The notes under the pieces were generated by a model, which made no database searches, was not told the DNA's origin, and saw only the letters and a program-made list of their open reading frames with translations. A DNA stretch of 37,149 bases from UHGV virus genome UHGV-0075871; one strand, 5' to 3'. This DNA comes from a virus. The position numbers and the translations under genes were made by a program. The stretch's first letter is position 1, and each line of letters starts with the position of its first letter. Below, piece by piece: positions 2,282 through 32,415 of the stretch.

Positions 2282-3099
2282 ACGTACATATCCTGTTTAC
2301 GTGCCCAGTCAGGGCGTTTAATAATTTCCACTCCGCCCCACTCATCGTTGATGCGGCATTCGTGATAGGTATTCAGATCCCGGCGGAACAGAGCGTGCCC
2401 GGCATCGACATCCGGCGCATCCAGCTCGAACACGCGTACCGGATATCGACCACAATCAATGCTTTCGCTCACGGCAAGAAAGAAAAAACCATGCGGCTGA
2501 CCAGTAACCCTCATTGCGCCTTCGCGGTACATTGCGTCCTGCACGTGGTAGCGGAATTCCTCGATGTGGCGTGCAAAACGGTCCATATCTGCAACCTTTT
2601 TCACGTCGACGATCACGTTGTGCTCGTTCAGCCATTTGTCTGGACGAATGCGGCACAACTCACCCGTATCTTCATCGTTCCAGTACATTGATGCTTCGCA
2701 GTAACCAGGGGCTTCCAGCATCCAGCGTGCCGCCGGGTGAGCCATTGCGCTATCACGCATCAGCTCCAGTTTCCGCCACTGCTCGGCATCAAGTACCGTA
2801 ATCCCCATATCCGCCACATCAAGAAGAAATGCCTCTTCGTCATCTTTACCTTGTTTCGTCCGACGATCGAATTTCGGTGAAACGATGAAGCGTTTGTCGA
2901 ATTCTCCAGGTTCCAGAAGCAGGCAGTGCAATGCGGTTCCCATATCCAGTGCAGACTTTTTCTCTTCGTCTTCTGGTGCTGCCTGAACCCATTTAAGAAG
3001 CGCCGGATTCTTGGCAACCATGTCCAGTTGCGACTTACTCACGCCGTCACCGGCGTGGTAGTCTTCGTTGCTGATGTCGAAATAAATTCCCGGTTTCAT
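2278..3099 (-). CDS. PD-(D/E)xK family exonuclease (recombination partner of the annealing protein)
   Basis: 273 aa; N-terminal YFDISNEDYHA...VSKSQL typical of phage PDDEXK exonucleases; later VIVDVKK ... EEFRYHVQDAMY consistent with a D-x-K / Q-x-x-x-Y nuclease core; adjacent to and coupled with the Bet-like gene. Confidence 0.7.
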   Translation of the reverse strand: MKPGIYFDISNEDYHAGDGVSKSQLDMVAKNPALLKWVQAAPEDEEKKSALDMGTALHCLLLEPGEFDKRFIVSPKFDRRTKQGKDDEEAFLLDVADMGITVLDAEQWRKLELMRDSAMAHPAARWMLEAPGYCEASMYWNDEDTGELCRIRPDKWLNEHNVIVDVKKVADMDRFARHIEEFRYHVQDAMYREGAMRVTGQPHGFFFLAVSESIDCGRYPVRVFELDAPDVDAGHALFRRDLNTYHECRINDEWGGVEIIKRPDWARKQDMYV

Positions 3100-3395
3100 G
3101 CCGCGTCCCTCTGCCCATCAAGCTGATCAGCCAGATCCCAGCGGGCGATAATTGCCATTGCCTCTCGCCGATAGGCATCCATCAGTTCTTCGAACTCAGG
3201 GCTGTCTTTAGCAGCCTCCAGTACTTCCTGACGAACGCCTTTGCCTGTTACAACGTCGAAAGTTGAGGACAGTTGATGAAGTCGGATGCTCTCAATCAGT
3301 TCAACTTGTCGGTCATATAGCTGTTCTGACAGGCGGTAGTCCTTGTCGAATGCCAGCATGATTTTTTGAAGATTTTTCTGCTGATTAACGTTCAT
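3096..3395 (-). CDS. hypothetical early protein
   Basis: ORF track 3096..3410; start moved to the internal ATG (MNVNQQK...) because GGAGGG lies 8 nt upstream. Confidence 0.55.
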   Translation of the reverse strand: MNVNQQKNLQKIMLAFDKDYRLSEQLYDRQVELIESIRLHQLSSTFDVVTGKGVRQEVLEAAKDSPEFEELMDAYRREAMAIIARWDLADQLDGQRDAA

Positions 3396-3400
3396 TATCA

Positions 3401-3550
3401 GCCCTCCCATATCTCGTTATCGTTGGCCACATCGCGAGCTTCTTTGCTGACGAAAGCCCACTTAATGCCTTCCTGTAAGGTGCGGAACTTCCAGCTCATG
3501 AATCCGCATGCAGTAACGCAGTACCAACCGTTGATGATTTTCCACTGCAT
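3401..3550 (-). CDS. small hypothetical protein (49 aa), first gene of the leftward operon
   Basis: Not in the ORF track (<60 aa); ATG at 3550 with GAGG upstream; its stop overlaps the RBS/start of the next gene (ATGGGAGGGCTGATAATG), suggesting translational coupling. Confidence 0.35.
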
Positions 3551-3703: not shown

Positions 3704-4288
3704 TTATTGTTTGTTTTTTTCGTTCTGGTTGATGACAAATTCAATGTAACTTTCGATCTTTGCTTTCTCGGTTTCGGGTAACAATGCGTAGCGCGAGCGG
3801 TCATAGTTGATGGTCGCAGGGTCGTGCGGGTGAATCAGTAATTCATAGCCGTGACGCCCGAATGCGGATGCAACATTCTCCAGGGTGGAAATGGAAACGC
3901 TGACCTCATTGTTTAACAGGCGGCTGATTGTCACCTGGGCGACGCCGGATGCGCGGTGAAGTTTTCCCTGTGTTGAAAGGTCGCGGCTTTCGCTCATCCA
4001 GCGTTCCAGGTTGTGAGCCGCCAGCTGACCAATGTCGCTTGGGCCGACAGGCTGAAAACCTTCCTGAGAAAGCGAGCGATCGATATCAAGCCAGTTACGG
4101 GGTTTATTGGCGGCAGCTTCAATTTTTCGCGCAACCTGGTCGCCGATAACCTTCTTGCCAAGAGCCCAGCGGTTTACCAGATTTGCCTGAGTTCCAAGTT
4201 TTTCTGCCATCCGCGTCTGAACACCATTGAATTCACGGTCGATCAAGTCGTTGAGATTTTGCCTGCGGACGTCCTGGATACTTTTCAT
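3704..4288 (-). CDS. phage immunity repressor (CI-like, two HTH motifs, no S24 peptidase domain)
   Basis: 194 aa; two HTH-like segments (TRMAEKLGTQANLVNRWALG and VAQVTISRLLNNEVSVSIS); divergent from a Cro-like gene across an operator-rich spacer; no G-D-S-M / Ser-Lys autocleavage motif. Confidence 0.7.
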   Translation of the reverse strand: MKSIQDVRRQNLNDLIDREFNGVQTRMAEKLGTQANLVNRWALGKKVIGDQVARKIEAAANKPRNWLDIDRSLSQEGFQPVGPSDIGQLAAHNLERWMSESRDLSTQGKLHRASGVAQVTISRLLNNEVSVSISTLENVASAFGRHGYELLIHPHDPATINYDRSRYALLPETEKAKIESYIEFVINQNEKNKQ

Positions 4289-4343: not shown

Positions 4344-4406
4344 TTACCCAACAGGTAAATGCACCCCATAGGTAACTATCCTTGATTTTTGTTACCTTAT
4401 GGGTGA
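4344..4406. promoter_or_regulatory. OR-like operator cluster between repressor and Cro-like genes
   Basis: TTACCCAACAGGTAA (4344..4358, perfect), GCACCCCATAGGTAA (4361..4375, variant), TTACCTTATGGGTGA (4392..4406, variant): three tandem sites as in lambdoid OR. Confidence 0.6.
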
Positions 4407-29533: not shown

Positions 29534-29707
29534 GTGTTTTTAATTATTTTGAGTGTGATAATTTCTGGTGGGTTGTTATTTATTGACCGCTACAAATATT
29601 TTCTTAACCCTCAGACTCAAGCTATTTGCTGGTTCATCTTTGTTGTGCAGGGAATAGTTCTTGTTGCAAGCCTTATTGAGGGGAGGCCTCTGATTTTTAC
29701 TGGGTAA
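29534..29707 (+). CDS. small two-helix membrane protein (candidate)
   Basis: Not in the ORF track (<60 aa); GTG at 29534 four nt after AAGGAAG; predicted product has two hydrophobic helices (FLIILSVIISGGLLFI and AICWFIFVVQGIVLVASLI). Confidence 0.35.
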   Translation: MFLIILSVIISGGLLFIDRYKYFLNPQTQAICWFIFVVQGIVLVASLIEGRPLIFTG

Positions 29708-29719
29708 ATAGGTGACTAC

Positions 29720-30016
29720 ATGCAAGCTATAGGATTCATTGTTTATATCGTCGTTGGTCTTTTTCAGTTGGCAGCAATTATGGCTGGGCTTGAATCATGG
29801 TGGGGATTGCACTGGATAATTGCAGCCCCCATTGCTTTCATCGTGAGCTATATTCCATTTGTTGGAGCGATTGTTGGTATGGTTGGCGCTGTGGATGTAT
29901 GGCGGTGGGAGTGGTGGCAGGCTGGCATTCTCTTCTTTGGTGGGATCATCTTTGCTGTTGTCTGCGGTGGAATGTCATCATTTTTCGAATGGCTATCATT
30001 CAGAAAAGGGACGTGA
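29720..30016 (+). CDS. small multi-pass membrane protein (Trp-rich), candidate superinfection-exclusion function
   Basis: 98 aa, about three hydrophobic helices and a WRWEWWQ motif; stop codon inside the palindrome GTGACATGTCAC, followed by a terminator. Confidence 0.6.
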   Translation: MQAIGFIVYIVVGLFQLAAIMAGLESWWGLHWIIAAPIAFIVSYIPFVGAIVGMVGAVDVWRWEWWQAGILFFGGIIFAVVCGGMSSFFEWLSFRKGT

Positions 30017-30025
30017 CATGTCACA

Positions 30026-30049
30026 GGCCGCTTTCGCGGCCTTGTTTTT
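30026..30049 (+). terminator. rho-independent terminator after the membrane-protein genes
   Basis: GGCCGC-TTTC-GCGGCC followed by TTGTTTTT. Confidence 0.65.
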
Positions 30050-30209
30050 AACGAATGCCACCGCCACCCGGGCGGGAATCCGCAGAACGCCCACCGCAGC
30101 GGGAGCCGTCAGCGGCAGTATCGCTGTCGTGCTGACAACGACCGGCAAAAGCCTGAGTTGAAGCTACCAGAGACAACAAAACGAACAGTGCAGCAAATGC
30201 TTTTTTCAT
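30048..30209 (-). CDS. small secreted peptide (candidate)
   Basis: Internal ATG of ORF 30048..30281 gives MKKAFAALFVLLSLVASTQAFA-GRCQ..., a classic Sec signal peptide with AXA cleavage site; plausible promoter TTGACG-16-TATAGA upstream; weak RBS; mature part Gly/Arg-rich and GC-rich, so uncertain. Confidence 0.3.
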   Translation of the reverse strand: MKKAFAALFVLLSLVASTQAFAGRCQHDSDTAADGSRCGGRSADSRPGGGGIR

Positions 30210-30303
30210 TGTGAAATTTCCATCTATAAGCCACCTCAATGTGGCGTCAATGAGTGTAGCACTGACTTTTGTTTCGTCCACAAAAAAAGCCCGCAGCGCT
30301 GGC

Positions 30304-30843
30304 TTACCAAAACTTGTACCACGGGGATTTATCCTTCAATGGGCAATCCTTCCATCGTGTGGCCAACCATTCATATTCTTTAAAATATGTGTTTATGTTT
30401 TCTTTTTCTCTAATGGCTTGTATAAGAGGTAGCGCAATCTGATAGTTATTTACAACGGAGCTGTAAAATACTTCCTTAATCATGGTCTCATCATAAGTTT
30501 TCCGCTTCACGCTCACAGCCATGCGTTCGTAGAAACCTAGACAGTAAATTATTTCTCTCTTCTCTGTCTTTTCTTCATCCGTAAGATCAGCCTGCCCATT
30601 GCTTGGATACATATAAGAGCGGAATGATTTGTTCGACTCGTGAATGCGGCGCATAGTAGATAGGCCTTTCTTATAATCTACATCAAACCTGCTTTCACCA
30701 AGGAATACTGAAGTGTGTACTTTTCTCGCTGTATTTACATTATAAATAATAGTAGCGATAGCTATGAACAAGCCAAGCGAAACCGCGACTGCACTTACGA
30801 TTTGAGCCACAGCCATGGCAAATTGCATTTCTTCACTTAACAC
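30304..30843 (-). CDS. moron: single-pass membrane protein, function unknown
   Basis: 179 aa; N-terminal hydrophobic helix (MAVAQIVSAVAVSLGLFIAIATIIY) then a soluble Lys/Glu/Tyr-rich domain; lower GC than neighbours; opposite strand; own leader with a 10-codon ORF and hairpin. Confidence 0.65.
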   Translation of the reverse strand: MLSEEMQFAMAVAQIVSAVAVSLGLFIAIATIIYNVNTARKVHTSVFLGESRFDVDYKKGLSTMRRIHESNKSFRSYMYPSNGQADLTDEEKTEKREIIYCLGFYERMAVSVKRKTYDETMIKEVFYSSVVNNYQIALPLIQAIREKENINTYFKEYEWLATRWKDCPLKDKSPWYKFW

Positions 30844-31059: not shown

Positions 31060-31752
31060 TCAGAAGAACCCAGCCTTGTCGTTGATGTACTCCGCGTGCG
31101 TCTGGATATCACGCAGGCATTTGCTCACACCAACGATGTAGCAGAACATGGTGGTCAGCTCCGCCGCCGCGCCCGATACGTCGTGCCCGTCGTCCTGTAA
31201 CTGGTTCAGCAGATTCATCAGCAGTGAGTTCTCCGTCAGGCCGAGAACACCAGACGGAGAATGAATCAGGCTACGGTAGCCGGGCTTCAGTGGAGCACTG
31301 TAGGTTTTGTTCTCTATCTTCATCGCCTGCATTACTGCTGACGCCGTGGCGTTGGCTACCTGGTCGGCAACCATCTTTATGCGTTCTTCCTGCGGTAGCG
31401 AGTTTTTAATGTAACTTCCGGTGCGGCGGATCTGAGGAAGAACCTCGCCTGTAACCCATTCAAGAAATCTGAATGCTCTCGTTCCCTCAGTCATTGCCTC
31501 TTTGCAACGCAGAATAAGGATGTAGAGACCTGATTCTGAAACGATGGATAGTTCTTGTATTCCACCAGGGGTCTGTATTGAATACAGCCCCTTTTTGTTC
31601 CAGCCTTTTTTATCAAGTTTTCTCGCTTGTGTAACATCAATATTCAAAGCATTGCACACATCTTTGGTGACAAACCAAGGTTCTCCGTCAATCATGAACA
31701 TACGGATCTGGCAGGATGACTCAAAGGAAAAGATGGAAGGTTTGGTATTCAT
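31060..31752 (-). CDS. antirepressor-type protein with Bro-N-like N-terminal domain
   Basis: ORF track 31060..31797; start moved to MNTKPSIFSF with AAGGTG RBS; N-terminal FESSCQIRMFMIDGEPWFVTKDVCNALNI resembles Bro-N; C-terminal ~85 aa paralogous to the small gene at 32067..32324. Confidence 0.7.
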   Translation of the reverse strand: MNTKPSIFSFESSCQIRMFMIDGEPWFVTKDVCNALNIDVTQARKLDKKGWNKKGLYSIQTPGGIQELSIVSESGLYILILRCKEAMTEGTRAFRFLEWVTGEVLPQIRRTGSYIKNSLPQEERIKMVADQVANATASAVMQAMKIENKTYSAPLKPGYRSLIHSPSGVLGLTENSLLMNLLNQLQDDGHDVSGAAAELTTMFCYIVGVSKCLRDIQTHAEYINDKAGFF

Positions 31753-31778
31753 GGCGATCACCTTTGTAGTTAGGTTAA

Positions 31779-31811
31779 TCACCACCGCTGAGACCAATCA
31801 GATGGTGGTGA
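31779..31811 (-). other. stem-loop in the 5' leader of the Bro-N gene with hexaloop GACCAA (plus-strand sense)
   Basis: TCACCACCGCTGA-GACCAA-TCAGATGGTGGTGA; imperfect 12-bp stem; same loop sequence as the hairpin at 31949..31964. Confidence 0.4.
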
Positions 31812-31904
31812 ACTGTGCAGAGTTGGTCTTACCGGCTACAAAGGAACCCGGCGCACCTTTCGGTGCCCCCACACAGCCCACCATAGAATAGGTGCGCTTT
31901 ACAC

Positions 31905-31994
31905 ATAAAAAAAACCGCTTATGCGGCATATGTGCCTCTGTAGTAATCCGGGAGACCAATCCCGGCACTGGATTTTGCCAGTGCCCGATTACTA
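31905..31994 (-). ncRNA. candidate structured RNA element / small RNA between the two antirepressor genes
   Basis: Outer 8-bp stem TAGTAATC/GATTACTA (31941..31948 with 31987..31994) enclosing hairpins CGGGA-GACCAA-TCCCG and GCACTGG-ATTTTG-CCAGTGC; in minus-strand sense followed by short hairpin CCGC-ATAA-GCGG and T8 (31907..31926); operator palindrome just upstream. Confidence 0.25.
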
Positions 31995-32020
31995 TGGCAC
32001 AAGAGGAGTGCGATGTAAAT

Positions 32021-32035
32021 TTACCTCAAAGGTAA
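32021..32035. promoter_or_regulatory. TTACC-N5-GGTAA operator-like palindrome
   Basis: TTACCTCAAAGGTAA between the two antirepressor-type genes. Confidence 0.5.
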
Positions 32036-32066
32036 ATATAAGCACTCCACTTGGTAATTGCAAACC

Positions 32067-32324
32067 TTATCTGGTTTGTTTTCGTAATTGTTCGGCACAA
32101 TAGTCGAGATGTGTTTGCAGATCCCGCATAGACATCTGTGAGCTGGTGACGTAGTTAATCAGTGCAGTCAGTTCGGCAAGTGGGCCATCGACATTAAATC
32201 CATCCTTATCGAGATCCCGGAGTAATTTCATCAAGTGCGATCCCTCCACCAGTGACCTGACGCCTCCCGGCGTGTGAATCCTTTCGGTAAATCCGTCTTC
32301 CAGTGGATAGTGATACCGCTGCAT
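32067..32324 (-). CDS. small antirepressor-domain protein (paralogue of the Bro-N protein C-terminus), LexA-controlled
   Basis: ORF track 32067..32342 (TTG start); likely start at the ATG (MQRYHYP...) with GGAGAAG RBS; IHTPGGVRSLVEGSHLMKLLRDLDKDGFNVDGPLAELT...MRDLQTHLDY parallels the C-terminal region of the 31060..31752 product; LexA box about 20 nt upstream. Confidence 0.6.
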   Translation of the reverse strand: MQRYHYPLEDGFTERIHTPGGVRSLVEGSHLMKLLRDLDKDGFNVDGPLAELTALINYVTSSQMSMRDLQTHLDYCAEQLRKQTR

Positions 32325-32345
32325 CTTATCTTCTCCATGCAATAA

Positions 32346-32361
32346 CTGTATATTTATACAG
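32346..32361. promoter_or_regulatory. LexA (SOS) box
   Basis: AACTGTATATTTATACAGTA: CTGT-N8-ACAG with an AT-rich spacer, near-consensus. Confidence 0.7.
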
Positions 32362-32400
32362 TATCAAATAATTTGTTTGCTATCCAGCACGTTTTGCAAA

Positions 32401-32415
32401 TTACCATAAAGGTAA
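32401..32415. promoter_or_regulatory. TTACC-N5-GGTAA operator-like palindrome
   Basis: TTACCATAAAGGTAA in the divergent spacer between the small antirepressor gene and the tailspike gene. Confidence 0.5.

What the first reader, a model, noticed from the sequence alone, without database searches (positions are those of the whole stretch)
31060..32324. Two antirepressor modules: a Bro-N fusion and a stand-alone paralogue of its C-terminal domain
The last ~85 residues of the 31060..31752 product (...IHSPSGVLGLTENSLLMNLLNQLQDDGHDVSGAAAELTTMFCYIVGVSKCLRDIQTHAEYI) align over their full length with the 32067..32324 product (...IHTPGGVRSLVEGSHLMKLLRDLDKDGFNVDGPLAELTALINYVTSSQMSMRDLQTHLDY). The shared domain is probably the repressor-interacting module, present once fused to Bro-N and once free behind a LexA box. 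The paralogues may target different repressors (cross-induction of co-resident prophages) or act as a decoy pair.
Basis: seen in the sequence. Interest (0 to 1): 0.5.

Follow-up and report, generated by a model that had tools for sequence, protein, structure and literature searches.

The report
Two differently wired prophage antirepressor genes

Summary
The last ~80 residues of the 230-aa product of 31060..31752 (-) align without gaps to the 85-aa product of 32067..32324 (-): 43% identity, E 2e-20.

The small protein is the orthologue (87%) of Ant of Salmonella phage SPC32H, whose complex with its repressor Rep is solved (PDB 5D50). It sits behind a near-consensus LexA box, and a Rep homologue lies at 3704..4288.

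The larger protein is a Bro-N domain fused to an old paralogue of that Ant domain. An 80%-identical homologue in phage ZX5 lowers lysogeny about 1000-fold when overexpressed.

The 315-bp "spacer" between the genes is not empty. It holds a promoter, an IsrK-type sRNA with terminator and a C4 antisense RNA, as in P1 immI and Gifsy-1 isrK-anrP. The two C4 recognition elements are complementary to IsrK and to the fusion gene's ribosome-binding site. This complementarity co-varies across 97 related leaders.

A palindrome, TTACC-N5-GGTAA, marks the rep-cro region and both antirepressor promoters.

Best reading: both proteins target the phage's own Rep. One is SOS-triggered; the other is controlled by RNA and probably by Rep. 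The cross-induction and decoy ideas are not supported. Verdict: a new variant of known kinds.

The parts
32401..32415 (.). Operator-like palindrome TTACC-ATAAA-GGTAA abutting a TTGCAA -35-like hexamer upstream of ant
   Evidence: One of 14 sites (up to 1 mismatch) against 0.57 expected. 13 of the 14 are intergenic in a window that is about 90% coding. SPC32H has the same site at the same place.
32344..32363 (.). LexA (SOS) box overlapping the ant promoter
   Evidence: AACTGTATATTTATACAGTA has 2 mismatches to the 20-nt consensus and is the only such site in the window. It is positionally conserved with the SPC32H ant LexA box.
32067..32324 (-). ant (Ant1): stand-alone 85-aa antirepressor, orthologue of SPC32H Ant
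   Evidence: 5D50 chain E at E 3.5e-46. 87.1% identity to SPC32H Ant. PHROG 450 at E 1.2e-47. No Pfam or NCBIfam family.
32021..32035 (.). Operator-like palindrome TTACC-TCAAA-GGTAA directly upstream of the -35 of the isrK promoter
   Evidence: Present in 15/18 related leaders whose cargo has the Ant domain and in 0/79 with other cargo.
31991..32019 (-). isrK promoter: -35 TTTACA (32019-32014), 17-nt spacer, TG-extended -10 CATAGT (31996-31991). The predicted +1 coincides with the IsrK 5' end at 31984
   Evidence: Promoter scan. Conserved in alignment A2. Homologous position to the Gifsy-1 isrK promoter.
31908..31984 (-). IsrK-type sRNA carrying b1 (UUGGUCU, 31959-31953), a1 (CUACAGAGG, 31943-31935) and an intrinsic terminator (31927-31914 plus a U run)
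   Evidence: Rfam RF01394, 74.7 bits against a gathering score of 50. The overlapping c4-a1b1 model RF03163 scores 39.9 bits, below its gathering score of 46.7. Terminator.
31801..31888 (-). C4 antisense RNA with recognition elements a' (CCUUUGUAG, 31844-31836, hairpin-2 loop) and b' (AGACCAA, 31829-31823)
   Evidence: Rfam RF01695, 78.6 bits against a gathering score of 45. Folds alone to -43.6 kcal/mol with the expected structure.
31758..31797 (-). Downstream C4 targets: b2 (UUGGUCU, 31797-31791) and a2 (CUACAAAGG, 31769-31761), the latter overlapping the Shine-Dalgarno AAGGUGA (31764-31758) of the fusion gene
   Evidence: Read directly from the sequence. Co-variation across relatives.
31060..31752 (-). 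Bro-N::Ant2 fusion antirepressor, 230 aa. Bro-N is residues 16-106 (nt 31435-31707). The Ant-like domain is residues ~147-228 (nt 31069-31314)
   Evidence: Pfam Bro-N E 1.8e-13. PHROG 130 'anti-repressor Ant' E 2.1e-50 and PHROG 450 at residues 147-228. 5D50 chain E at E 1.6e-13. The ZX5 ORF4 homologue is experimentally pro-lytic.
3704..4288 (-). rep: the presumed target of both antirepressors, homologue of SPC32H Rep
   Evidence: 5D50 chain A at E 4e-42. 42.7% identity to SPC32H Rep. 98.5-100% identical in all E. coli Uetakeviruses.
4344..4406 (.). Two copies of the same palindrome in the rep / cro-like intergenic region (4344-4358 and 4392-4406)
   Evidence: SPC32H has three copies in the equivalent region.

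Best explanation
The window is an E. coli Uetakevirus (epsilon15/phiV10/SPC32H-like) prophage with a non-cleavable repressor Rep and two antirepressors built on one Rep-binding domain.

(1) ant (32067..32324, -) is the SPC32H-type Ant. LexA sits on its promoter. DNA damage removes LexA, Ant is made, and, as shown for SPC32H, an Ant tetramer binds the C-terminal tetramerisation/Ant-binding domain of Rep and splits the DNA-bound Rep tetramer.

(2) The fusion gene (31060..31752, -) encodes a Bro-N domain fused to an old paralogue of the Ant domain. It has its own immI-type leader, in this order: promoter, IsrK-like sRNA (a1/b1 plus terminator), C4 antisense RNA (a'/b'), then b2 and a2, with a2 lying on the gene's Shine-Dalgarno. 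In the lysogen, C4 pairs with b2/a2, or the same pairing forms in cis in read-through RNA, and blocks translation. IsrK carries the same target sequences and competes for C4, which relieves the block.

The TTACC-N5-GGTAA palindrome next to the isrK promoter, also found in the rep-cro region, probably lets Rep hold this promoter down. Loss of Rep activity would then feed forward into a second, LexA-independent supply of antirepressor that commits the phage to lytic growth. The same gene also biases new infections towards lysis.

Shown here: the homologies, the RNA elements and their complementarity, and the distribution and co-variation of the parts. Shown elsewhere for relatives: Ant-Rep binding (SPC32H), the pro-lytic effect of the Bro-N protein (ZX5), and C4 and IsrK function (P1, Gifsy-1). 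Inferred: that Ant2 binds this Rep, that the palindrome is the Rep operator, and the feed-forward logic.
For: Domain homology.

Rep in the window.

LexA box.

SPC32H mechanism as summarised in PMC9638917 and PMC9986798.

RNA genes above Rfam gathering scores.

Every relative with the fusion has isrK plus C4 immediately upstream of it, and SPC32H has neither.

Gifsy-1 has the same leader in front of an unrelated antirepressor, AnrP. IsrK and AnrP function there: PMC4825925.

P1 immI logic (C1 operator plus C4 RNA controlling ant): PMC8198154.

Alignment-free co-variation in 97 unique leaders. The cognate b' has a perfect complement of at least 7 nt both in IsrK and downstream in 90/97 leaders, against 0/5548 non-cognate pairs. 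The a' loop has a perfect complement of at least 7 nt in the stretch just upstream of the start codon in 77/97, against 4.2%.

In the window, a2 overlaps the Shine-Dalgarno.

The read-through RNA is strongly structured (z -4.9), and its minimum-energy fold pairs IsrK b1/a1 with C4 a'/b'.

Palindrome: 14 sites against 0.57 expected, 13 of them intergenic, 2 in the rep-cro region. Conserved in SPC32H. At the isrK promoter in 15/18 leaders with Ant-domain cargo against 0/79 others.

Ant2-C follows Rep identity while Bro-N does not.

ZX5 ORF4 overexpression lowered lysogens from 1e9 to 1e6 and rep mRNA by 75%.
Against: No direct evidence that the Ant2 domain binds this Rep or forms tetramers. The AlphaFold model of the C-terminal part is weak (pLDDT 37-74) and Foldseek found nothing significant.

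The palindrome also precedes terminase and portal genes, so it could be the site of Cro or another phage regulator rather than Rep. The primary SPC32H papers could not be read to check the operator sequence.

The sign of IsrK/C4 action is taken from P1 and Gifsy-1. The Gifsy-1 model needs translational coupling through orf45, but here the equivalent 28-codon ORF stops 46 nt before the ATG.

phiV10 has the fusion truncated inside the Ant2 domain, and PAS61 lacks it altogether, yet both have the same Rep. The second antirepressor is therefore dispensable.

The Rep/Ant2 co-variation rests on only six relatives and, like the 15/18 against 0/79 palindrome association, is not corrected for shared ancestry.
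Confidence: 0.6

Rival explanations
1. Cross-talk: the fusion's Ant2 domain is tuned to repressors of other, co-resident prophages. Induction of this phage, or derepression of the isrK promoter, would then co-induce heteroimmune neighbours.
For: There is precedent. Gifsy and Fels antirepressors act on non-cognate repressors, and FsoA is under its own phage's repressor yet targets Gifsy-2 (PMC3121763). Ant1 is 87% identical between phages whose Reps are only 42% identical, which suggests broad recognition in this family. TL-2011b carries two Ant2-type fusions in addition to Ant1.
Against: The Ant2 domain follows the resident Rep across relatives (100/98, 98.5/99, 78/79, 45/54%), and stays at 97-99% where the Bro-N part is swapped for a 64% allele. 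In the phage collection the Ant domain family is confined to Uetakevirus-like genomes with this Rep family. ZX5 ORF4 acts on ZX5 itself.
Confidence: 0.15
2. Decoy or modulator: because Ant works as a tetramer, the fusion co-assembles with Ant1. It would poison or tune the Ant tetramer, or tether it to DNA through Bro-N, and so set the induction threshold rather than act as an antirepressor itself.
For: [quoted passage not shown] The two domains share 14 invariant positions across both subfamilies. The AlphaFold monomer model of the C-terminal domain is poorly defined, as expected for a part that folds on assembly.
Against: Overexpression of the ZX5 homologue promotes lysis and lowers lysogeny 1000-fold, the opposite of an inhibitory decoy. 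Within-genome Ant1/Ant2 identity is only 38-43% in every lineage, so nothing keeps their interfaces matched. The two genes have different triggers and are separated by about 1 kb of cargo in EC.W1-9 and TL-2011b.
Confidence: 0.1
3. The fusion's main role is unrelated to Rep. It could, for example, be a Bro-N DNA-binding regulator, an exclusion or anti-defence factor, or a moron like its neighbours, with the Ant-like tail serving only as an oligomerisation domain.
For: It lies in a variable cargo region next to a DUF4760 membrane protein and small membrane ORFs. It is dispensable in some relatives. The function of Bro-N is poorly defined.
Against: The C4/IsrK leader is found in front of antirepressor genes in P1 and Gifsy-1. 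The immunity-region palindrome sits at its promoter only when the cargo has the Ant domain. There is experimental anti-lysogeny activity in ZX5. There are no PADLOC hits.
Confidence: 0.1

Closest known systems
SPC32H Ant/Rep/LexA antirepression switch (Kim & Ryu 2013; Kim et al. 2016; PDB 5D4Z, 5D50)
   Same: The small gene is the orthologue (87% identity, 85 against 86 aa). It has the same LexA box position, the same location divergent from the tailspike gene, a Rep homologue and the same palindromes in the immunity region.
   Different: SPC32H and all other Salmonella members have only this one Ant gene, with no IsrK/C4 and no Bro-N gene. Rep here is only 42.7% identical.
P1/P7 immI operon (c4 - icd - ant1/2), controlled by a C1 operator and C4 antisense RNA
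   Same: A C4 RNA (Rfam RF01695) is encoded in the leader of an antirepressor gene. It has two recognition elements complementary to one target set upstream and one downstream, the latter at the ribosome-binding site. A repressor-operator-like site lies at the promoter. Many specificity variants exist, as between P1 and P7.
   Different: There is no icd-like coupled ORF; the a2 target lies on the antirepressor's own Shine-Dalgarno. The antirepressor protein is unrelated to P1 Ant. The host phage is a podovirus with a second, LexA-controlled antirepressor of the same domain family.
Gifsy-1 isrK - orf45 - anrP locus (Hershko-Shalev et al. 2016), together with the LexA-controlled GfoA (Lemire et al. 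2011)
   Same: The order is identical: a1b1/IsrK with terminator, then C4-like RNA, then an antirepressor. Gifsy-1 also has one LexA-controlled antirepressor and one IsrK-controlled one.
   Different: AnrP has an ORF6N domain and no detectable similarity to the fusion. In Gifsy-1 the two antirepressors are not reported to share a domain, and this was not tested here. There is no isrJ here. The orf45 equivalent is 28 codons long and not coupled. The promoter carries the Uetakevirus palindrome, which Gifsy-1 lacks.
vB_EcoP_ZX5 ORF4 'anti-repressor' (PMC9782041)
   Same: The same protein family (80% identity over residues 6-230), the same Rep (100% identical) and the same locus.
   Different: That study described only the Bro-N domain. 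It treated ORF4 as the phage's sole antirepressor and did not note the small Ant gene, which is annotated as hypothetical, the shared domain or the RNA leader.
Modular Bro-N / KilA-N / AntA / pRha / ORF6N / P22_AR_N phage regulators with swapped C-terminal domains
   Same: The Ant domain occurs C-terminal to each of these N-domains, the usual shuffling pattern of phage antirepressor-like proteins.
   Different: The C-terminal partner here is the SPC32H-type Ant domain. It has no Pfam or NCBIfam model and is a small family: 68 representative clusters among 1.84 billion proteins.

Membership tests
SPC32H-type Ant (small gene) | Sequence homology to the crystallised Ant over its full length | tested here: met
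   5D50 chain E, E 3.5e-46, residues 2-84 against 3-85. 87.1% identity.
SPC32H-type Ant (small gene) | LexA box overlapping the promoter | tested here: met
   32344-32363, 2 mismatches to the consensus, unique in the window, same position as in SPC32H.
SPC32H-type Ant (small gene) | Cognate Rep of the SPC32H family in the same phage | tested here: met
   3704..4288 (-), 5D50 chain A at E 4e-42.
SPC32H-type Ant (small gene) | Physical binding to Rep and disassembly of the Rep tetramer | not testable with these tools
   Known only for SPC32H.
SPC32H-type Ant domain (C-terminus of the fusion) | Significant homology to Ant | tested here: met
   BLASTP to the small protein E 2e-20. 5D50 chain E at E 1.6e-13. 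PHROG 450 at E 4.8e-37.
SPC32H-type Ant domain (C-terminus of the fusion) | Same fold, tetramer formation and Rep binding | tested here: inconclusive
   In the AlphaFold model the C-terminal part is helical but pLDDT is 37-74. Foldseek against the PDB found no significant hit. Binding cannot be tested here.
Bro-N domain proteins | Pfam PF02498 above its gathering score | tested here: met
   51.4 bits against 25.6, residues 16-106. Modelled with pLDDT of about 80-88.
P1-type C4 antisense RNA system | C4 RNA matching the covariance model | tested here: met
   RF01695, 78.6 bits against 45, full length.
P1-type C4 antisense RNA system | Two recognition elements complementary to targets at the ribosome-binding site of the downstream gene | tested here: met
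   a' CCUUUGUAG pairs with a2 CUACAAAGG on the Shine-Dalgarno. b' AGACCAA pairs with b2 UUGGUCU. Co-variation in 97 leaders.
P1-type C4 antisense RNA system | Second target set (a1/b1) upstream of C4 | tested here: met
   b1 and a1 lie inside the IsrK match. The c4-a1b1 model itself scores 39.9 bits, below its gathering score of 46.7, but the cognate complementarity holds.
P1-type C4 antisense RNA system | icd-like ORF translationally coupled to ant | tested here: not met
   The only ORF in the leader is 28 codons from the AUG at 31883 and stops at 31798, 46 nt before the ATG.
P1-type C4 antisense RNA system | Operon promoter under the prophage repressor | tested here: inconclusive
   The immunity-region palindrome abuts the -35. 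Binding by Rep has not been shown.
P1-type C4 antisense RNA system | C4 released from the precursor by RNase P | not testable with these tools
   The conserved 3' ...CACCACC tail is present. Processing was not assayed.
Gifsy-1 isrK-orf45-anrP locus | IsrK sRNA with its own promoter and intrinsic terminator | tested here: met
   RF01394, 74.7 bits against 50. Terminator at 31927-31914. Promoter TTTACA-17-CATAGT.
Gifsy-1 isrK-orf45-anrP locus | AnrP-type (ORF6N) antirepressor and isrJ downstream | tested here: not met
   No similarity between the fusion and AnrP. AnrP has an ORF6N domain. No isrJ hit in the window.

The most novel reading that the evidence does not exclude
The SPC32H-type Ant domain is a portable warhead against the Rep tetramerisation domain, and the phage deploys it twice in a coupled relay. 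The SOS-induced ant transcript has no canonical terminator before the IsrK terminator, so it would carry the IsrK a1/b1 sequences at its 3' end. It would then act as a sponge for C4 and unlock translation of the Bro-N::Ant2 fusion, while loss of Rep opens the isrK promoter. That would be an mRNA-embedded anti-antisense linking the SOS response to a self-reinforcing second antirepressor. The many a'/b' variants would then keep co-resident prophages insulated from each other's C4 RNAs.
Probability: 0.2. Interest if true: 0.65.

Novelty: new variant of a known kind. Interest (0 to 1): 0.45.

Why it matters
This module occurs in about one in ten complete E. coli genomes: 542 of 5426 have a match and 113 hold most of it. 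The annotation pipeline calls the SPC32H-type Ant a hypothetical protein, calls the fusion only "BRO-N domain-containing", and does not annotate the RNA genes.

Three things follow from recognising that both genes carry a Rep-binding domain with a solved structure, and that one is under LexA while the other is under an immI-type RNA switch. First, it gives a concrete, testable circuit for how these prophages commit to induction, including induction independent of DNA damage. Second, it explains why the ZX5 "Bro" protein is pro-lytic. Third, it defines a compact domain family, absent from Pfam, that is recombined onto at least five different N-terminal modules.

None of the individual parts is new. 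Ant/Rep, C4, IsrK and Bro-N antirepressors are all described.

Tried and rejected
1. Homology between the fusion and Gifsy-1 AnrP: none. Only the RNA leader is shared.

2. Structure route. The AlphaFold model from a 24-sequence alignment gave a good Bro-N domain but a weak C-terminal part. Foldseek against the PDB gave nothing below E 0.08; the best hits were the SKI Dachshund-homology domain, Mbp1 APSES and the CpGV Orf22 N-domain. No structural claim is made beyond sequence homology to 5D50.

3. The primary SPC32H papers and the epsilon15 genome paper are not in the library. The Ant-Rep contact residues and the published operator sequence could therefore not be mapped.

4. Whole-molecule RNAduplex energies for C4 against IsrK or the leader were only weakly better than shuffles (37/500 and 21/500 shuffles reached them). 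I replaced this with explicit loop-to-target complementarity and a cognate against non-cognate test.

5. A first palindrome search used the wrong spacer (N6) and found nothing relevant. N5 is correct.

6. Genomic context of stand-alone 95-aa Ant2-type ORFs in Klebsiella: these lie in degraded prophage remnants next to HicAB and say nothing about target specificity.

7. PADLOC and NCBIfam gave no meaningful hits for either protein.

8. A second LexA box in front of the fusion gene: none.

9. The cargo between ant and isrK in EC.W1-9 is not a recognisable insertion sequence.
Full report
**What the window is.** The region matches E. coli phages of the genus Uetakevirus (epsilon15/phiV10 type). 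It is 98% identical to EC.W1-9 and 92% to phiV10. It is 100% identical to a prophage in E. coli TUM10828.

**Check of the observation.** Both ORFs lie on the minus strand at the stated coordinates, and their translations contain the quoted peptides.
- BLASTP of the 230-aa product (31060..31752) against the 85-aa product (32067..32324) gives 43% identity over 74 residues with no gap, E 2e-20.
- PHROG 450 covers residues 147-228 of the large protein and 2-85 of the small one.
- Pfam Bro-N matches residues 16-106 of the large protein.
- CTGTATATTTATACAG at 32346-32361 is a near-consensus LexA box and the only one in the window.

**Identity of the small protein.** It is the orthologue of Ant of Salmonella phage SPC32H: PDB 5D50 chain E at E 3.5e-46, 87% identity.
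- In SPC32H, ant sits alone between a small membrane-protein gene and the tailspike gene, divergent from the latter. The position is the same here.
- The LexA box and ribosome-binding site align between the two phages.
- The repressor is at 3704..4288 (-): 5D50 chain A at E 4e-42. It is only 42.7% identical to SPC32H Rep.
- According to papers that summarise the SPC32H work, Rep binds DNA as a tetramer. Its C-terminal domain both tetramerises and binds Ant, and tetrameric Ant binds two Rep dimers and breaks the tetramer.
- The primary papers could not be read.
- This protein has no Pfam or NCBIfam family. PHROG lists its family as of unknown function. RefSeq annotates it as hypothetical.

**Identity of the large protein.** It is a Bro-N domain fused to an Ant-like domain (5D50 chain E at E 1.6e-13).
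- The family is common in Enterobacteriaceae and is annotated as BRO-like or anti-repressor.
- Phage vB_EcoP_ZX5 has an 80%-identical protein, ORF4, and an identical Rep. Overexpressing ORF4 lowered lysogens from 1e9 to 1e6 and rep mRNA by 75% (PMC9782041). That study noted only the Bro-N domain and did not mention the small Ant.
- An AlphaFold model is confident for Bro-N but weak for residues 137-230. Foldseek found nothing significant.

**The domain family.**
- In 50,697 phage records the Ant domain occurs in only 35, all Uetakevirus-like. Salmonella members have one copy. Most E. coli members, Enterobacter phage Tyrion and three Klebsiella phages have two. TL-2011b and HEMP4 have three.
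- The third copy in TL-2011b is a P22_AR_N::Ant2 protein behind an Arc-like repressor gene.
- A profile search of 1.84 billion representatives found only 68 clusters. Most are stand-alone proteins of 85-95 aa. The rest are C-terminal fusions to AntA, Bro-N, Phage_pRha or ORF6N.
- Two subfamilies are visible. Ant1 is the SPC32H type and Ant2 is the type found in the fusion. They share 14 invariant positions.
- Within every genome, Ant1 and Ant2 are 38-43% identical, so the duplication is old.

**What lies between the two genes.** The 315 bp between them is not a spacer. Rfam finds two RNAs on the minus strand, both above gathering scores:
- an IsrK-type sRNA at 31984 to 31908 (74.7 bits against 50);
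- a C4 antisense RNA at 31888 to 31801 (78.6 bits against 45).

The c4-a1b1 target motif overlaps IsrK but scores below its threshold.
- IsrK ends in the hairpin plus U-run at 31927-31914.
- A promoter, TTTACA-17-TG-extended CATAGT, places the transcription start at the IsrK 5' end.
- The C4 hairpin-2 loop CCUUUGUAG is the exact complement of CUACAAAGG, which overlaps the Shine-Dalgarno of the fusion gene.
- C4 AGACCAA complements UUGGUCU just 3' of C4, and again in the loop of IsrK hairpin 2.
- CUACAGAGG in the IsrK linker matches the C4 loop with one G-U pair.
- Gifsy-1 has the same order of elements in front of an unrelated antirepressor, AnrP.
- Every relative that carries the fusion has IsrK and C4 in front of it. 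SPC32H has neither.

**Co-variation test.** A pattern scan of viral contigs gave 97 unique leaders with 15 b' variants and 41 a' variants.

| Element | Test | Cognate | Non-cognate |
|---|---|---|---|
| b' | perfect complement of at least 7 nt both in IsrK and downstream of C4 | 90/97 | 0/5548 |
| a' | perfect complement of at least 7 nt just upstream of the start codon | 77/97 | 4.2% |

This is the P1/P7 immI logic, in which C4 RNA together with C1 repressor silences icd-ant (PMC8198154). It also fits the Gifsy-1 result that short IsrK acts in trans on the read-through mRNA to switch on antirepressor translation (PMC4825925).

The read-through RNA here is strongly structured (z -4.9). In its minimum-energy fold the IsrK targets pair with the C4 loops.

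There are two differences from the models. No icd or orf45-type coupled ORF is present. C4 targets the antirepressor's own Shine-Dalgarno.

**An operator-like palindrome.** TTACC-N5-GGTAA occurs 14 times against 0.57 expected.
- 13 of the 14 sites are intergenic, in a window that is about 90% coding.
- Two copies lie in the rep / cro-like region. One abuts the -35 of the isrK promoter and one lies upstream of ant.
- SPC32H has the same sites, including three between rep and the cro-like gene and one upstream of ant.
- Among the 97 leaders, the palindrome sits upstream of isrK in 15/18 whose cargo carries the Ant domain and in 0/79 others. This is not corrected for shared ancestry.
- The likeliest reading is a Rep (or Cro) operator. 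That would parallel the C1 operator of P1 immI, but binding has not been shown.

**Which repressor does the second domain serve?**

| Relative | Rep % | Ant1 % | Ant2 domain % | Bro-N % |
|---|---|---|---|---|
| EC.W1-9 | 100 | 98 | 98 | 100 |
| TL-2011b | 98.5 | 98 | 99 | 64 |
| Tyrion | 78 | 86 | 79 | 57 |
| Klebsiella phages | 45 | 61-65 | 54 | 49-56 |

All values are identity to the window's proteins.
- The Ant2 domain follows the resident Rep and the Bro-N part does not. This favours the phage's own Rep as the target, and Bro-N as an exchangeable accessory.
- The sample is small.
- Salmonella Ant1 (87%) with Rep at 42% shows that the relation is loose.
- phiV10 carries a fusion truncated inside the Ant2 domain, and PAS61 lacks the module, yet both have the same Rep. 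The second antirepressor is therefore accessory.

**Coupling of the two genes.** The scan finds no intrinsic terminator between the ant stop codon and IsrK. There is only an imperfect hairpin enclosing the palindrome. SOS-driven transcripts may therefore end at the IsrK terminator and carry the C4 target sequences. In EC.W1-9 and TL-2011b about 1 kb of opposite-strand cargo separates ant from isrK, so such coupling is not universal. I treat it as a hypothesis.

**Conclusion.** The guesses about different targets or a decoy pair are not supported.

The main missed feature is that the second gene sits behind an immI/IsrK-type RNA switch and a probable repressor operator. The locus is best read as a two-tier antirepressor circuit acting on one Rep.

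All components belong to known kinds. This arrangement, and the recognition of the Ant domain as a shuffled C-terminal module, appear undescribed in the papers I could search.

Noticed in passing
window 31801-31997 (-): IsrK-type sRNA and C4 antisense RNA lie between the two antirepressor genes. They are not annotated in phiV10 (which lists only a terminator and a 'similar to SF0880' feature there) or in the RefSeq E. coli genomes.
   Followed up: yes
window 3570, 3632, 4344, 4392, 6675, 6737, 9786, 9804, 12827, 13441, 30973, 32021, 32401, 35426: Palindrome TTACC-N5-GGTAA: 14 sites against 0.57 expected, 13 of them intergenic. Several come in pairs 62 bp apart (3570/3632 and 6675/6737), which would suit a looping tetrameric repressor. 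Sites also precede the terminase and portal regions.
   Followed up: partly
L014 (TL-2011b) 1561-2745; record 31060-32244: TL-2011b carries a third Ant-domain gene: P22_AR_N fused to an Ant2-type C-terminus (83% identity over 101 aa to the window's fusion). It is preceded by an Arc-like repressor gene, in a P22 immI-like arrangement. One phage therefore has three Ant-domain genes, each with its own control.
   Followed up: partly
L001 (phiV10) 2512-3191: In phiV10 the fusion is split into PhiV10p23 (194 aa) and p22 (29 aa). The break is inside the Ant2 domain, so the second antirepressor is probably inactive in this well-studied phage.
   Followed up: partly
window 3704-4288 against SPC32H rep: Rep is 98.5-100% identical in all E. 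coli Uetakeviruses but only 42% identical to the Salmonella Rep. Ant1 is 87% identical and the palindrome is unchanged. The extreme C-terminus of Rep (the Ant-binding/tetramerisation part) looks better conserved than the rest.
   Followed up: partly
window 29534-30843: There is a cargo cluster between the last virion gene and the fusion gene that SPC32H lacks. It holds a DUF4760 membrane protein (30304..30843, -, E 8e-31), a 77-aa protein that appears to have a signal peptide (30048..30281, -) and two small membrane ORFs on the plus strand. Relatives carry other cargo here, such as a YafO toxin in TL-2011b.
   Followed up: partly
L011-L013 (Klebsiella chromosomes), gene at 10001-10288: Stand-alone 95-aa Ant2-type ORFs sit in degraded prophage remnants next to an AlpA-like gene, HicA/DUF1902 and Rap1a-like genes. 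They may be leftovers of fusions that lost their N-domain.
   Followed up: partly
window 13043-13119 (-): tRNA-Arg (anticodon TCT), as in SPC32H and Gifsy-1.
   Followed up: no
window 32036-32050 and 32003-32012 (-); L001 ~3430-3480: The palindrome at the isrK promoter is embedded in a longer inverted repeat (GGAGTGC ... GCACTCC). In phiV10 this becomes a perfect 18-bp repeat. As RNA it would form a strong hairpin at the 3' end of the ant message, with unknown effect on termination or stability.
   Followed up: no
97 C4 leaders from viral contigs (L015 onwards): The C4 leaders carry 15 b' and 41 a' variants in many combinations. This suggests diversifying selection for orthogonal antisense specificities among co-resident prophages. 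Only 18 of the 97 precede an Ant-domain protein. The rest precede other protein types, recurring N-termini of which begin MTTQISVE (as in Gifsy-1 AnrP), MATVPAL and MANRKQ.
   Followed up: partly
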